Source of the DNA: the human T2T-CHM13v2.0 reference genome, Homo sapiens
Direction: 5' to 3' (one strand)
Length of the DNA: 64,000 nucleotides
Assembly (NCBI RefSeq): GCF_009914755.1
Contig: NC_060934.1
The position numbers and the translations under genes were made by a program. The notes beneath the pieces were generated by a model, which made no database searches, was not told the DNA's origin, and saw only the letters and a list, made by a program, of their open reading frames with translations. Of the stretch, positions 7,530-12,747 are shown one piece after another. The first letter of the stretch is position 1; each line of letters starts with the position of its first letter.

Positions 7530-8341
7530 TCCAAGAGCTGCTGGATTTGGGAACTGGGTTGCTCTGCAGCCAGCTATGTTGCTGCATATCTTACCCAAGA
7601 GGCGTTTGTGGAGATCTGATCACTATTTGCAAAGGTGTGTGCCACAACTGAGAGCACAGGGACTCTCCATTACTTGGGAACATCAACCATGCTGCTGGGA
7701 CTGAAGGGAAAGTGCCTGCTTCCCTAAATCCTGTGACTCATATACATTAGAACCTGATCCTGGAAGACCAGCTTCTCCTGGTAATTCTGAGGCTGAGGCT
7801 GCTCATGATGACATTCCCAACCATTCTGCTGATGTCCTTGAAAGAGTCAGTAAAGAAAATAACCTTTCTGTTCCTCCTGCTGCTGCCTCTCTCCGTGCAC
7901 ACCATGAACACAGCACAAAGGGGAGGGCCTTGCATGCTGGCTTTCCCCCATCTCAGGCTTGTCCCTTTCAGAATACTGAGGAGGAGATGCAGAAGGATAA
8001 GGAAATAATGCTGATCTACATCGACAAGGGCCATTTTCTGTATCACCTGGATACTCCAAATCACAGCTTAGTTTCCTTTTAATCCATAAGGCTACAGTTA
8101 TTTGAGCCATCATGTTAATTGGGAGTCCCCTGTGTCTCCACGGAAGAGTGGCCAGCTCCACCCAGTAGAACTTCCTGGGTACAAGAAGTTCTGCTCAGGG
8201 TCATCATTGGGAGATTCCACCTGGTTTTCCTGGATTCTTGTAAATGGGTGGCCTTTGGCAGAGGAATCATGCAGTTCCCTGGCAGTGAACATTCTGTGTC
8301 TCTCTCTAAGTGGTGGTCTGGCTTTTATTTTGAAACCAGTT
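7530..8341 (-). pseudogene. CPHX-type homeobox pseudogene, last exon (homeodomain helix 3 NWFQNK plus Q-rich C-terminus)
   Basis: Acceptor tttctctttag|AAC TGG TTT CAA AAT AAA = NWFQNK. A 2-bp loss near 8322 gives TAG at 8306-8308; restoring it reads RARPPLRERHRMF. Downstream frames give ESQHARP, QQNGWECH..PQNY, DLGKQ, NGESLCSQL, PLG*DMQ and EQPSSQIQQL, all resembling human CPHXL as recalled. Multiple stops and frameshifts. Confidence 0.85.
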
Positions 8342-8785
8342 CTAAAGAGAAAGAACAGTTTGTTAATTCAATCTGTTGGTTAAGACATATTGTACAATGC
8401 ATTTCCACAATGTAGAATTTTACAGTTAAGTTTAGTCTCAGGATGATCACCGGCTTGTTTCCTGACTTGAATAAGACACAAAGAATGAAGGCAATCCTTT
8501 GTGGGGCTGCACATTATGGAGGTTATAAATTGTGCACAATCCCAAAATTTCAACTGCCTCATAGTTGCAGTGGCCCTTTTGTACATGCAAACCTGGACCT
8601 TTCAAAATCTCCTACCAACCTGTTTGCAATCCTCCGCATTTGGAAAGAACAGACTTCCAGCCTTTCCCTAACTTATTTATTTTACTCACGCTGACCTACC
8701 AGGATAAACTTGTGATTCAATATACTCTAAATTATACTCTTAAATTCACTGTATTCAAAGACTATGCATAAAACAAGCAAGAGTT

Positions 8786-11700
8786 GGCCGGGCACAGTGG
8801 CTCATGCCTGTAATCCCAGCTCTTTGGGAGGCTGAGGCAGGTGGATCACAAGGTTGGGAGTTCAAGACCAGCCTGGCCAACTGGTGAAACCCTGTCTTTA
8901 CTAAAAAAAAATACAAAAATTAGCTGGGCATAGTGGTGTGTGCCTGCAATCCTAGCTACTTGGGTGGCTGAGGGAGGAGAATTGCTTGAACCCAGGAGGG
9001 GGAGGTTGCAGTGAGATGAGATTGTGCCACTGCACTCTGGCATGGGTTACAGAGCAAGACTTTATCTAAAAAAAAAAAAAAAAAAAGGAACAAGCAAGAG
9101 TTTGTAATAACCTGGCAAGGCATCTTACACGTGACTCTAAGCATTCCATTTGACACCTCTAGTCTTCATTTTTTTCCCTCCTCCACAAAGAGAGGATAAT
9201 TACACATGCCAACCATAATCCCTAGGGGTTTAGGGGAGGGAGAAATGATCAACACTGTTTTAGACTCTCCATCCTAATAAGCTCTGTTGTGGTACCGCAC
9301 CTAGAGCCCTACCATGCAGGTAAGGATGTCTGGGGGCCTTTTAATATTTGATCCCTCCAGGAACCCCTCTGTCTGCAAGTTCAGAATTGCTTTAGGTTAA
9401 TAGCGCTTAAAGCTAGAAAGATGTCTGATCCACACCTATAATGACTGCTTAAAACAAAGTTGTGGGCCAGGCGCGGTGGCTCACCCCTGTGATCCTAGCA
9501 CTTTGGGAGGCTGAGGTGGGTGGATCACCTGACATCAGGAGTTCGAGACCAGCCTAGCCAGCATGGGGAAACCTCATCTCTACTAAAAATACAAAAATTA
9601 GCTGGGCATCATGGCGCATGCCTGTAATCTCAGCTACTCAGGAGGCTGAGGGAGGAGAATCCCTTGAATGCAGGGGGCAGAAGCTGCAGTGAGCTGAGAT
9701 TGTGCCACTACACTCCAGCCTGGGCAACAGAGTGAGACGCCATCTCAAAATAAATAAATAATAAACAAATAAATAAAATTGTGACCATGCACAATGAACC
9801 TGGCACCTCCAGATATACTCATTTTCTTCTCACAACACCATCACAACATAATTATACATATTTTACAAAAAGATAAGGTGCAAGAGTCAACTTGCACCTT
9901 ATAAGTCAACTTGCACCTCTATAAGTCAGATGTTATAGAGCCATTAGGAGGTAGATCTCATGAGGACCCAACCAAAAGACAAGACCTCACTCTCTCATGA
10001 CAGAGCCTCCTGTGGCCCTCCCCTCAAACATGCTTGCTTCCTGATCACATCATGGGCACTTTCTTTAAGCACATGCAGGCCAGTTCAATTCAGTGTAATT
10101 TGATTAGCCGTTATCTATGAACTTCCTTTTAGGAATCTATCCCTCTGACAAGTAGAAAGGATAAAACATAATTAAAAAGCACTTTTGACCATGAGCAACC
10201 CAACTGTCACAAAGTTAGAAATGTAAATAAATGAACAGTATAAGAACGTTCATTTAAATGTTTGACCAAGCCCAGGCGCAATGGCTCATGCTGTAATCCC
10301 AGCACTTTGGGAGGCTGAGGCAGGGGGATTGCTTGAACCCAGGAGTTTGAGCCCAGGCTAGGCCATATGGCAAAACCCCATCTCTACATTAAAAAAAAAA
10401 AAAAATTAACCAGGCATCATGTCCTGTGGTCCCAGCCACTCAGGAGGCTGAGGTGGGATCACTTAAGCCCAGGGAGTCGATGCTGCAGTCAACCACAATT
10501 GCGCCACTGAAATCCAGCCTGGGCAACGGAGTGAGACCCTGTCACTTAAAAAAAAAAAAAAAGAAATCGATCAGTCCTTCCATTTCTATCCTGGTTATTT
10601 ACTTTATTTGGATTTTCTACTTATTTGCAGGAAGGCATTTGTTTGTATTTCCCTTGAAATGTTCTCACTTCATGAAGCTTTTTTTTTTTTTTTTTTGTGA
10701 TGGAGTCTCCCTCTGTCACCCAGGCTGGAGTGCGGTGGCATCATCTCAGCTCACTGCAACCTCTGTCTCCAAGGTTCAAGCGATTCTCCTGCCTCAGCCT
10801 CCTGAATAGCTGGGATTACAGGTGTCTGCCACCACTCCCAGCTAATTTTTGTATTTTTGTAGAGATGGGTTTTTGCCATGTTGGCCAGGCTGGTCTTGAA
10901 CTCCTAACCTCAGGTGATCCACTCACCTCGGCCTCCCAAAGTGCTGGGATTACAGGCATGAGCCACCATGCCTGGCCTACTTCACAAAACTTTTATAAAA
11001 ATTTCATTACACAATATTTGCCTATACTTTTCCTTTATTCTCCAAAGTTGCTTATATTCTTTGTTTTCACTAACACAGTTTTGTCCTTCTGTCAAGCAAC
11101 CAATATATTCAATAGTCAAAGGATAATCACAGATGAGAAATATGAAAGTCTCCTTAAATGTGTATATATAATCTGTCAGGGGATTAGAGAATAGATTGTA
11201 TGTGTAAATAATATAAATTCAAATACAATAAGATGTTGTGCTTTAACAATTTACAATGATCATATCAGAAAATCACCAAACAAAATATTAGTTCGTGCAA
11301 TAAATGGTTATGAAGCAACTACTGATGCTGTGGGGTTCTGTGCCAAGTCCCGTGACACTATCAAGCCAAGTTCTTCCTCCTGCACTTCAGACTTGCATGC
11401 CTAACTTTTTACTTACTCCTTGGAGTAAGTAAACTCTTAGAGGTTTAATTGGCACACCAAACTTAACGTGTGCAAAGTAAAACTCCAAATGTCTGACACA
11501 AAAGTGCTCTTCTCCCAAGCTCCCCTGTTAGTTAAAGGCATCTCCAATCTTCCATGTCAAGCCAAAACTTTGGAGCTATCCTTACCTCTGGCATCCCCAA
11601 TAACTCAGCAAACTATAAGCCGCTCCACCTTTAAAAATTAAAGGTCTTCCCAGTTCTCTAATTCCACAGCCAGCACCCTTGTCAAAACCATCACTGTCTC

Positions 11701-12437
11701 TATCCTGGAAAATTACAATAATAGCTTTTTCTTTTTTTTGAAACAGAGTATCGCTCTGTCGTCCAGGCTGGAGTGCAGTGGCGTGATGTTGCCTCACTGC
11801 AACCTCCACCTCCTGAGTTTAAGAAATTCTCCTACCTCAGCCTCCTGAGTAACTGTGATTACAGGCGCGTGCCACCATGCCCGGCTAATTTTTATATTTT
11901 TGGTAGAGACAGGGTTTCACCATGTTGGCCAGGCTGGTCTTGAACTCCTGACCTCAGGTGATCCGCTCACCGCAGCCTCCCAAGGTGCTGGGATTATAGG
12001 CATGAGCCACCGCAGCCAGCCTACAGTAGCTTCTTAACACTGCTCCCAAATTTGCCTCACAATAGTCTATTTTCCATAAAATGCATATATAATATATTCA
12101 CACCCACATTGAGATGAACAACAACCAAAAAAAAAATCAAATTTTTTTTTTTTTTTTTTTTGAGAATCTCACTGTTGCCCAGGCTGGAGTGTAGTGGTGC
12201 CATCTTGGCCCTGTGCAACCTCTGCCTCTGAGGTTCAGGCAATGCTCCTGCCTCAGCCTCCCAAGTAGCTGGGACTACAGGCACGTGCCAACCTGCCTGG
12301 CTAATTTTTGTATTTTTGGTAGAGATGGGGTGTTGCCATGTTGGCCAGGCTGGTCTCGAACTCCTGGCCTCAAGTGATCTGCCCGCCTCAGCCTCCCTAA
12401 GTGCTGGGATTACAGGCATGAGCCACTGCGCCCAGCC
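8786..12437. mobile_element. Alu cluster in the homeobox intron (+: 8786-9086, 9465-9775, 10270-10565; -: 10679-10977, 11726-12021, 12142-12437) with an L2-like fragment at about 11340-11720
   Basis: Canonical Alu dimers with A/T tails. Confidence 0.85.
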
Positions 12438-12556
12438 TAAAAAAATCACTTTGTGCTATGTGATAAAATGCTATTAAACTTTTTCATGCTTCTTTACATT
12501 TTCCACATTATCTATAAAAAGACATACCCATGCAAAGCTTTTAATATTTTACTTAC

Positions 12557-12747
12557 ATCAATTACAAACACAGGACAAGAGACTGTCCAGCCAGTTTTTC
12601 CCTGGTTGTAAAATTAGGATAAGGATTCTGTGCAAATGACTGCTGAAGTACACTCAGCTTATCCTTGGTAAATTTAAGCCACGGTTTTACACTTCCTCTT
12701 CCCCATCTTCTTGTTCTTACTTCATTATGACTGGTTAATGGGAGATC
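12557..12747 (-). pseudogene. CPHX-type homeobox pseudogene, exon encoding homeodomain residues 1-46
   Basis: Acceptor tttttcag|GAT at 12747. Translation HNEVRTRRWGRGSVKPWLKFTKDKLSVLQQSFAQNPYPNFTTREKLAGQ, then a 1-bp loss near 12582; shifted frame SCPVFVID|gtaagt (donor 12551-12556). F8, L13, L16, F20, Y25, P26, R31, L34, A35 and I45 are correctly spaced. Confidence 0.9.

What the first reader, a model, noticed from the sequence alone, without database searches (positions are those of the whole stretch)
7530..12747. Hidden intron-containing CPHX-type PRD-class homeobox gene, inactivated by two tiny deletions
Seen: splicing 12747-12557 to 8341 through a canonical GT-AG intron of 4215 nt, and repairing a 1-bp and a 2-bp deletion, rebuilds a complete homeodomain: SVKPWLKFTKDKLSVLQQSFAQNPYPNFTTREKLAGQxSCPVFVID|NWFQNKRARPPLRE. 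Established: a phase-0 intron between residues 46 and 47 is typical of PRD-class genes, and the CPV.VID|NWFQNKRAR signature and C-terminal motifs match CPHXL as I recall it. In mouse, Cphx sits beside Tmem254, Plac9 and Duxbl. Inference: this is the unprocessed pseudogene orthologous to rodent Cphx, an oocyte/early-embryo homeobox gene lost in this lineage. No single ORF in the track reveals it. Remnants at this syntenic site may already be noted in the homeobox-evolution literature.
Basis: partly seen in the sequence, partly recalled or inferred. Interest (0 to 1): 0.9.

Follow-up and report, generated by a model that had tools for sequence, protein, structure and literature searches.

The report
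Known dead CPHX homeobox gene
The last two exons of the human non-coding RNA gene TMEM254-AS1 are the broken remains of a CPHX-type early-embryo homeobox gene, which was already described in 2010-2011.

Summary
On the minus strand, exon 12747-12557 joins exon 8341-5397 across a GT-AG, phase-0 intron of 4215 nt lying between homeodomain residues 46 and 47. Reading through a 1-nt and a 2-nt gap gives a 60-residue homeodomain. The first piece alone passes Pfam Homeodomain (24.6 bits, cut-off 22.9).

It belongs to the CPHX family, not DUX. Its best match in the human genome is the CPHXL homeobox exon on chr16. Similarity to CPHXL runs on through the C-terminal region (summed E 2e-17). A DUXBL pseudogene exon lies separately, 23 kb away.

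More is broken than the title says. There are at least four frame changes and two in-frame stops, and the homeodomain frame has no ATG.

The finding is not new. Leidenroth & Hewitt 2010 and Zhong & Holland 2011 already called this locus (LOC219347, ENSG00000230091) the human 10q Cphx pseudogene with a helix-3 frameshift.

One small addition: an intron-less retrocopy on chr4 (K2P distance 0.195) shares the 2-nt helix-3 lesion but not the 1-nt lesion or the two stops. The helix-3 break is therefore the older one.

Orthology to rodent Cphx rests on gene order and on the literature. I could not obtain a mouse sequence.

The parts
15099..15309 (-). Upstream exon (exon 4 of NR_027428.1), probably an ancestral 5' exon of the CPHX gene. 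No usable start codon was found in the frame that joins the homeobox exon.
   Evidence: Its last 42 nt are joined without an intron to the homeobox exon in the chr4 retrocopy. Its 5' part aligns at 69% over 129 nt (E 2e-5) to a region about 6 kb upstream of the CPHXL homeobox exon on chr16. The phase-0 frame has stops, with TAA two codons before the junction. Donor is GTAGGC.
12557..12747 (-). Homeobox exon. Homeodomain residues 1-46 lie at 12693-12557. The acceptor TTTCAG precedes 12747 in phase 0.
   Evidence: Pfam PF00046: E 2.3e-5, 24.6 bits against cut-off 22.9. Identical residues: 20 of 45 to each chr16 CPHX gene, against 9-14 of 45 to five DUX homeodomains.
12581..12586 (-). Lesion 1: a 1-nt deletion in homeodomain codons 36-38. 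The exact base is ambiguous within ACAGTC.
   Evidence: In the multiple alignment the window lacks 1 nt relative to both chr16 genes and to the chr4 retrocopy. It is therefore younger than the retrocopy.
8342..12556 (-). Intron of 4215 nt, GT-AG, phase 0, between homeodomain residues 46 and 47. It contains Alu-like repeats.
   Evidence: The same intron position is seen in CPHXL, CPHXL2, DUXB and the DUXBL remnant.
8300..8341 (-). Helix-3 part of the homeodomain (residues 47-60): NWFQNK, one stray base at 8323, then ARPPLRE.
   Evidence: Relative to both chr16 genes, 2 nt are missing at the R53 codon. The chr4 retrocopy has the same gap, the same frame and the same TAG stop.
7495..8299 (-). Decayed C-terminal coding region. 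It is read in three frames (8322-8113, 8194-7850, 7737-7495).
   Evidence: tblastn of CPHXL: residues 196-305 match 8059-7745 and residues 330-387 match 7674-7495, summed E 2e-17. CPHXL2 residues 211-396 match 8065-7535, E 7e-10.
7847..7849 (-). In-frame TGA inside the CPHXL-homologous reading.
   Evidence: The chr4 retrocopy has TCA here.
7591..7593 (-). In-frame TAA inside the CPHXL-homologous reading.
   Evidence: The chr4 retrocopy has CAA here.
6842..7154 (.). Alu-like insertion in the last exon, flanked by the direct repeat AAGATACCTAACA. It is absent from the chr4 retrocopy.
   Evidence: There is a gap of 313 nt in the window-chr4 alignment. The stretch gives many Alu-type hits.
5397..6841 (-). 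3' untranslated part of the last exon, with AATAAA at 5821-5816 and at 5420-5415.
   Evidence: The chr4 retrocopy aligns down to about window 5794, roughly 20 nt after the first AATAAA. It then shows a short A-rich remnant.

Best explanation
This is a transcribed, unprocessed pseudogene of the CPHX family. CPHX genes are Q50 paired-like (PRD-class) homeobox genes that in mouse and human act in the oocyte and early embryo.

Shown here:
- Its homeobox exon and its large 3' exon survive with intact GT-AG splice sites. They are spliced today as the last two exons of the lncRNA TMEM254-AS1.
- It cannot make a homeodomain protein. The homeodomain frame has no ATG. Codon 53 of the recognition helix lacks 2 nt and codons 36-38 lack 1 nt. 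The C-terminal region has at least two more frame changes and two stops.
- The 2-nt helix-3 deletion is the oldest lesion that can be ordered, because a diverged processed retrocopy on chr4 shares it. The 1-nt deletion and both stops came later.

Inferred:
- It is the positional orthologue of rodent Cphx1.
- It is a paralogue of the intact human CPHXL and CPHXL2 on chr16, which presumably carry the family's function in humans.
- The parent transcript was expressed in the germ line or early embryo when the retrocopy formed.
For: Anatomy. Pfam Homeodomain is above its cut-off on the N-terminal fragment alone.

PRD class. The intron lies at 46/47 in phase 0. Among the 29 PDB sequences listed at E <= 10, the six DUX4 entries lead, and the other homeodomains that follow are mostly PRD class (PITX2, PAX3, PHOX2B, aristaless, goosecoid, PAX6, OTX2, CRX, HESX1).

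CPHX family:
- The best non-self genomic match is the CPHXL exon, E 4e-5, 42% over query 1-68. That search gave 146 matches from 150 scored candidates.
- The C-terminal region is collinear with CPHXL, summed E 2e-17.
- Identical residues in the 46-residue exon part: 20/45, 20/45 and 21/44 to the three other CPHX loci, against 9-14/45 to five DUX homeodomains.
- The CPHX|DUX split has 100/100 support.
- The chr16 comparators check out. They flank two DUXB homeobox exons on one strand and differ at 6 homeodomain positions. Madissoon 2016 states the same for CPHX1 and CPHX2 (passages).

Retrocopy:
- It is contiguous across the exon 4/5 and 5/6 junctions, 76.7% identity over 1443 columns.
- It ends after an AATAAA with an A-rich remnant.
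- K2P distance is 0.195 in both the coding block and the 3'UTR block.

No coding constraint since that split: dN/dS is 0.65 (bootstrap 0.43-1.02) over 249 codons, against 0.57 and 0.60 in the two wrong frames.

Literature (passages seen):
- Zhong & Holland 2011 name LOC219347 on chr10 as the putative human CPHX. They class both 10q22.3 loci as pseudogenes with helix-3 frameshifts.
Against: - Wilming 2015 (passage) argued that the HomeoDB 'CPHXR' loci on chr10 are really DUX pseudogenes, and that human has no CPHX gene. My comparisons contradict this for the window locus, but I saw only that passage and not their figure.
- Similarity to rodent Cphx itself was not tested. Zhong & Holland give at most 35 of 60 homeodomain residues.
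- The exon-2 ORF alone matches the chr16 genes only weakly (E 0.37 and 0.82; E 2.0 in the reverse search).
- The tree holds only CPHX and DUX rows, so it cannot exclude another PRD family.
- Five ETV6-fusion PDB chains score E 3e-4 to 0.022 against residues 16-47 of the ORF, none with a stretch that passes on its own. I take these as noise.
- The homeodomain codons alone give dN/dS 0.25 (0.08-0.63) on 48 codons, but one wrong frame gives 0.39. Some past constraint on the homeodomain is therefore not excluded.
Confidence: 0.9

Rival explanations
1. The remnant is a DUXBL-type (double homeobox) pseudogene rather than a CPHX gene, as Wilming 2015 suggested for the chr10 'CPHXR' loci.
For: The best solved-structure match of the N-terminal ORF is DUX4 homeodomain 1, E 4.9e-5. 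DUX4-like loci come second in the genome search, E 7e-4. The Wilming 2015 passage is.
Against: - There is only one homeodomain.
- The sequence after it is collinear with CPHXL, which is not a DUX protein.
- A separate DUXBL-like homeobox exon lies at C10:80886956-80887126, 23 kb outside the window.
- Identity to that exon is 12/45, against 20-21/45 to the CPHX loci.
- The CPHX|DUX split has 100/100 support.
- PDB holds no CPHX structure that I saw, so DUX4 may simply be the nearest solved relative.
Confidence: 0.03
2. The locus is no longer just a relic. Its spliced RNA (TMEM254-AS1) has been kept for a non-coding role, or it yields a short peptide, after the coding function died.
For: Both splice junctions used today were already used when the chr4 retrocopy formed, and all four splice sites are still canonical. 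The transcript is a curated RefSeq model (hub annotation). The helix-3 break is old, yet the exon structure persists.
Against: - Divergence from the retrocopy is the same in the coding block and the UTR block (0.195 each). dN/dS is no lower than in the wrong frames. Neither gives any sign of constraint.
- An Alu has landed inside the last exon.
- The homeodomain frame has no ATG.
- No functional data were seen. The papers naming TMEM254-AS1 in the listing are mainly tumour or patient expression studies (listing only).
Confidence: 0.12
3. The window locus is itself a retrocopy, or the homeodomain-like reading is a chance resemblance.
For: None beyond the weakness of single-exon E-values.
Against: The intron is retained at the PRD-class position, and its acceptor tract is conserved with chr16. 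Three independent collinear blocks match CPHXL. The syntenic neighbours fit (and the hub annotation).
Confidence: 0.01

Closest known systems
Human CPHXL and CPHXL2 (published as CPHX1 and CPHX2), 16q23.1
   Same: - The exon plan is the same: a homeobox exon ending after residue 46, a phase-0 GT-AG intron, then a large 3' exon beginning NWFQN.
- The shared motifs are KF at residues 7-8, FTT/YTT at 28-30, CPV at 40-42, and VID|NWFQNK.
- The C-terminal blocks are collinear.
- Both loci sit beside a DUXB-type gene on the same strand.
   Different: The chr16 genes have open frames (64 + 331 and 64 + 332 residues seen). Madissoon 2016 reports them expressed in 8-cell embryos and acting as activators (abstract and passages). 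The window copy has at least 4 frame changes and 2 stops, and no ATG in the homeodomain frame. Homeodomain identity is only about 44% in the first 46 residues. The repeated ...PSQQVG... segment of CPHXL gave no match in the window.
Rodent Cphx1 (mouse chr14, cassette Anxa11-Plac9-Tmem254-Cphx1-Duxbl)
   Same: It occupies the same position between TMEM254 and a DUXBL-type gene (hub annotation, and the Wilming 2015 passage). It is a single-homeobox gene.
   Different: It is intact and triplicated in mouse (passages). Sequence likeness could not be tested here. Zhong & Holland report at most 35 of 60 homeodomain residues.
Human 10q22.3 Cphx pseudogene as already published (LOC219347 / ENSG00000230091; HomeoDB 'CPHXR')
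   Same: It is the same locus. It is described as lying next to DUXBLP, as a processed transcript in Ensembl, and as a pseudogene with a frameshift in helix 3. LOC219347 lies next to SFTPD. It is replaced by TMEM254AS1 in a later list of the same gene set. That the two names are one gene is also my recollection of the gene ID.
   Different: In the passages I saw, the papers do not mention the later lesions, the missing ATG or a chr4 retrocopy. They count four human Cphx loci, two on chr10 and two on chr16.
DUXBL pseudogene (DUXBLP), 10q22.3
   Same: It is a neighbouring PRD-class relic on the same strand, with the same 46/47 intron position.
   Different: It has a different homeodomain type (12/45 identical). 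It lies 23 kb outside the window.

Membership tests
Homeodomain (Pfam PF00046) | Profile score above the curated cut-off | tested here: met
   24.6 bits against 22.9, E 2.3e-5, profile positions 6-36 of 57. This is on the unaltered 75-aa ORF 12562-12789(-). The read-through 60-mer was not scanned.
Homeodomain (Pfam PF00046) | Intact recognition helix with W48, F49, N51 and R53 in one frame | tested here: not met
   W48, F49, Q50, N51 and K52 are present, but the R53 codon lacks 2 nt and the frame ends in TAG five codons later. It is broken, as expected of a pseudogene.
PRD class (paired-like, Q50) | Phase-0 intron between homeodomain residues 46 and 47. That this is a class hallmark is established knowledge, recalled. 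| tested here: met
   GAT|gtaagt ... tttag|AAC, intron 4215 nt.
PRD class (paired-like, Q50) | Nearest homeodomains are PRD-class members | tested here: met
   PDB ranking: DUX4 first, then PITX2, PAX3, PHOX2B, aristaless, goosecoid, PAX6, OTX2, CRX and HESX1. No formal all-class phylogeny was run.
CPHX family | Homeobox exon is closest to known CPHX genes | tested here: met
   The top non-self hit in the human genome is the CPHXL exon. Identities are 20-21 of 44-45, against 9-14 of 45 for DUX. The split has 100/100 support (10 rows, 46 columns).
CPHX family | Collinear similarity outside the homeodomain | tested here: met
   CPHXL residues 196-305 and 330-387 match 8059-7745 and 7674-7495, summed E 2e-17.
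CPHX family | Position beside TMEM254 and a DUXB/DUXBL-type gene | tested here: met
   Hub annotation for TMEM254, PLAC9 and ANXA11. The DUXBL-like exon was found 23 kb upstream. The mouse gene order is from the Wilming 2015 passage.
CPHX family | Sequence similarity to the founding member, rodent Cphx1 | not testable with these tools
   No mouse sequence was available. The one protein-database search returned nothing.
DUX (double homeobox) family | Two homeodomains in one gene | tested here: not met
   One homeodomain only. The sequence after it matches CPHXL and no second homeobox was found.
Processed pseudogene | No introns, with a poly(A) remnant | tested here: not met
   The window locus keeps its intron. 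The chr4 copy does meet this definition.

The most novel reading that the evidence does not exclude
A retrocopy with K2P 0.195 carries the helix-3 frameshift and the same two exon junctions. On neutral rates I recall (1.0-2.2e-9 per site per year) that distance is roughly 45-100 million years. So a frameshifted CPHX transcript was being made in the germ line or early embryo that long ago. The locus has kept canonical splice sites and transcription ever since. The boldest reading not excluded is that the dead homeobox gene was taken over early as a functional spliced RNA, now the 3' half of TMEM254-AS1. A variant is that it briefly served as a helix-3-truncated homeodomain protein, rather than drifting as a relic.
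Probability: 0.12. Interest if true: 0.4.

Novelty: already known. Interest (0 to 1): 0.15.

Why it matters
The value is mainly in annotation. TMEM254-AS1 appears in many expression-signature papers as an anonymous lncRNA, yet its two 3' exons are a dead early-embryo homeobox gene.

The comparisons here also bear on a disagreement in print. Wilming 2015 suggested that the chr10 'CPHXR' loci are DUX pseudogenes. Zhong & Holland 2011 called them Cphx pseudogenes. For this locus my results favour the latter.

The chr4 retrocopy gives a relative order of the lesions without needing other genomes. It also makes a testable prediction: every species that carries the retrocopy should carry the 2-nt helix-3 deletion.

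Tried and rejected
- **Protein database search.** The 75-aa ORF, searched against longer proteins, gave 10 candidates and none at E <= 0.01. So no mouse Cphx or other mammalian CPHX proteins were obtained.
- **Outgroup homeodomains.** The tree therefore has only CPHX and DUX rows.
- **Exon 2 of the second chr10 CPHX-like locus.** It was not found within the 8 kb downstream of its homeobox exon. It was also not found genome-wide with the first 70 residues of CPHXL2 exon 2 (6 matches, none at that locus). So I could not check whether it shares the helix-3 lesion.
- **Start codon.** Neither the window's exon 4 nor its chr16 counterpart gave a convincing conserved start.
- **Target-site duplications** of the chr4 retrocopy were not convincing by eye.
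- **dN/dS.** The first script crashed on small segments. The repeat gave no signal beyond the wrong-frame controls.
- **Pfam noise.** A DUF1719 match on the 115-aa ORF scored 13.8 bits against a cut-off of 25.
- **Supplements.** Supplementary figures and tables of the papers were not opened. They may hold alignments that bear on the lesions.

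
Full report
**What is there**

On the minus strand the window holds an exon at 12747-12557 and an exon starting at 8341.
- The first exon is preceded by TTTCAG and followed by GTAAGT. The second is preceded by CTTTAG. The intron between them (8342-12556) is 4215 nt.
- ORF 12562-12789(-) reads SVKPWLKF...NPYPNFTTREKLAGQ. After two extra bases the next frame reads SCPVFVID, ending exactly at the donor.
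- The second exon opens with NWFQNK. After one extra base it continues ARPPLRERHRMF... in ORF 8110-8367.
The intron falls between homeodomain residues 46 and 47 in phase 0.
- Both exons are the last two exons of RefSeq NR_027428.1 (TMEM254-AS1) in the hub's annotation. The gene is annotated, but as non-coding.

**Is it more than chance?**

- The unaltered 75-aa ORF alone reaches Pfam Homeodomain at 24.6 bits (cut-off 22.9, E 2.3e-5). Of the other three ORFs scanned, two had no match and one had a sub-threshold DUF1719 match that I take as noise.
- Against solved structures, 29 distinct sequences were listed at E <= 10. The six DUX4 entries lead (4.9e-5 to 5.3e-4). Most of the other homeodomains that follow are PRD class: PITX2, PAX3, PHOX2B, aristaless, goosecoid, PAX6, OTX2, CRX and HESX1.
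- Five ETV6-fusion chains also appear, none with a stretch that passes on its own. I treat them as noise.

**Which family?**

The window's own genome could be searched. Of 150 scored candidates, 146 matched at E <= 10. Most are DUX4-type repeats near E 1. The informative hits were:
- C16:81717676-81717879: the best non-self match, E 4e-5, 42% over query 1-68.
- C16:81766588-81766788: E 0.042.
- C10:80868039-80868149, 42 kb upstream of the window: E 0.004.

Reading the two chr16 loci gives two genes with the same plan as the window. The homeobox exon ends ...DCPVNVIN or ...DCPVNVID, followed by GTAAGT. The next exon starts after an AG with NWFQNNRAR or NWFQNKRAR and stays open for 331 or 332 residues.
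- They flank two DUXB-type homeobox exons on one strand.
- They differ at six homeodomain positions.
- Madissoon 2016 states exactly these two properties for CPHX1 and CPHX2 at 16q23.1 (passages). I therefore take them to be CPHXL and CPHXL2.

tblastn of these two proteins against the window gives three collinear blocks:
- the homeobox exon (12729-12583, E 5e-5);
- CPHXL 196-305 on 8059-7745;
- CPHXL 330-387 on 7674-7495 (the last two summed, E 2e-17).

Similarity therefore extends far beyond helix 3.

Over the 46 exon-encoded homeodomain residues, the window shares the following:
- 20/45 with each chr16 gene;
- 21/44 with the second chr10 locus;
- 24/41 with a chr4 copy;
- only 9-14/45 with five DUX homeodomains, including 12/45 with the DUXBL remnant.

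A maximum-likelihood tree of these 10 rows separates CPHX from DUX with 100/100 support. It contains no other PRD family, because outgroup loci could not be fetched.

The DUXBL-like homeobox exon is a separate object at C10:80886956-80887126, 23 kb upstream of the window. For this locus, then, the suggestion in Wilming 2015 that the chr10 'CPHXR' entries are really DUX pseudogenes (passage) is not borne out.

**How broken is it?**

Aligned to both chr16 genes, the window lacks 1 nt within codons 36-38 and 2 nt at the R53 codon. The damage goes further than that:
- Following the CPHXL-homologous frames requires another frame change between 8194 and 8059, and another between 7745 and 7674.
- That reading passes TGA 7849-7847 and TAA 7593-7591.
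- In the spliced RefSeq transcript the homeodomain frame is open for only 64 codons (nt 904-1095). It is closed by a TAA two codons before the exon 4/5 junction and contains no ATG.
- I could not identify a conserved start codon in exon 4 or in its chr16 counterpart.

'Inactivated by two tiny deletions' is therefore an undercount.

**A retrocopy that orders the lesions**

A locus on chr4 (about C4:10157689-10159966, minus strand) aligns to the spliced transcript without a break.
- It runs from the last 42 nt of exon 4, through the homeobox exon, into the last exon. Identity is 76.7% over 1443 columns, then 73.6% over 914.
- It stops about 20 nt after an AATAAA (window 5821-5816) and is followed by a short A-rich remnant.
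- It lacks an Alu-like insertion that sits in the window at 6842-7154 between copies of AAGATACCTAACA.

It is therefore a processed retrocopy of this locus's transcript, and it used the same two splice junctions.
- K2P distance is 0.195 in both the coding block and the 3'UTR block.
- With neutral rates of 1.0-2.2e-9 per site per year (my recollection, not a call), that is roughly 45-100 million years.
- The retrocopy has the same 2-nt gap at codon 53, the same frame and the same TAG. It has the full length at codons 36-38, TCA in place of the TGA, and CAA in place of the TAA.

The helix-3 deletion therefore predates the retrocopy, and the other three lesions are younger or private to chr10.

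dN/dS between the two copies is 0.65 (bootstrap 0.43-1.02) over 249 codons. The two wrong frames give 0.57 and 0.60, so there is no sign of coding constraint since the split. The 48 homeodomain codons alone give 0.25 (0.08-0.63), but one wrong frame gives 0.39, so this is not informative.

**Synteny and orthology**

The hub annotation places TMEM254, PLAC9 and ANXA11 on one side. One search places the DUXBL remnant and a second CPHX-like homeobox exon on the other side, towards SFTPD. The mouse cassette is Anxa11-Plac9-Tmem254-(Eef1g)-Cphx1-Duxbl (Wilming 2015, passage). Orthology to rodent Cphx is thus supported by position. I could not test it by sequence, because the one protein search returned nothing.

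**Already in print**

- Leidenroth & Hewitt 2010 (passages) noted Cphx homologues next to both DUXB and DUXBLP. [quoted passage not shown]
- Zhong & Holland 2011 (passages) state that MGI identified LOC219347 on chr10 as the putative human CPHX. They find four human Cphx loci. They say the two at 10q22.3 are truncated with frameshifts in helix 3 and are pseudogenes.
- LOC219347 lies next to SFTPD (passage). It is replaced by TMEM254AS1 in a later list of the same gene set (passages). That both names denote one gene is also my recollection.
- A 2026 DUX paper again draws CPHXL beside DUX loci (passages).

The core finding is therefore known. In the passages I saw, no paper mentions a chr4 copy. 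I ran no dedicated search for one, and I opened no supplements.

**Verdict**

This is an ordinary, already described unprocessed homeobox pseudogene that is transcribed as part of a lncRNA. The novelty claim and the lesion count are not.

Noticed in passing
Outside the window: G000 C4:10157689-10159966 (minus), loci L026 and L034: A processed retrocopy of the exon 4-5-6 transcript of this locus. K2P distance is 0.195. It shares the helix-3 2-nt deletion but not the later lesions. The passages I read count four human Cphx loci and none on chr4.
   Followed up: yes
Outside the window: G000 C10:80886956-80887126 (minus), i.e. window -23045..-22875, locus L037: A DUXBL-type homeobox exon (homeodomain 1, open through residue 46, followed by GT). 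It matches a DUX4-like query at 54% identity, E 3e-12. It is presumably the published DUXBLP.
   Followed up: partly
Outside the window: G000 C10:80868015-80868191 (minus), loci L005 and L035: A second CPHX-like homeobox exon. It is open, one residue short in the 31-40 region, and followed by GT. In the small tree it groups with the chr16 pair (86/91) rather than with the window copy. Its second exon was not found within 8 kb or genome-wide.
   Followed up: partly
window 6842-7154: An Alu-like insertion inside the last exon of TMEM254-AS1, flanked by the 13-nt direct repeat AAGATACCTAACA. It is absent from the chr4 retrocopy, so it inserted after that copy was made.
   Followed up: partly
window 15099-15588 and 12747 (NR_027428.1 nt 624-932): A 102-codon ATG-started ORF runs from exon 3 through all of exon 4 into the homeobox exon, in a frame other than the homeodomain frame. 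Exon 4 is fully open in that frame (70 codons). The chr16 counterpart does not keep the frame, so it is probably fortuitous.
   Followed up: partly
window 37824-38352: The first exon of TMEM254-AS1 (37886-38352, minus) overlaps the first exon of TMEM254 (37824-37945, plus) in the hub annotation. The modern lncRNA therefore starts head-to-head with TMEM254, overlapping its first exon, and reads 25 kb into the dead homeobox gene.
   Followed up: no
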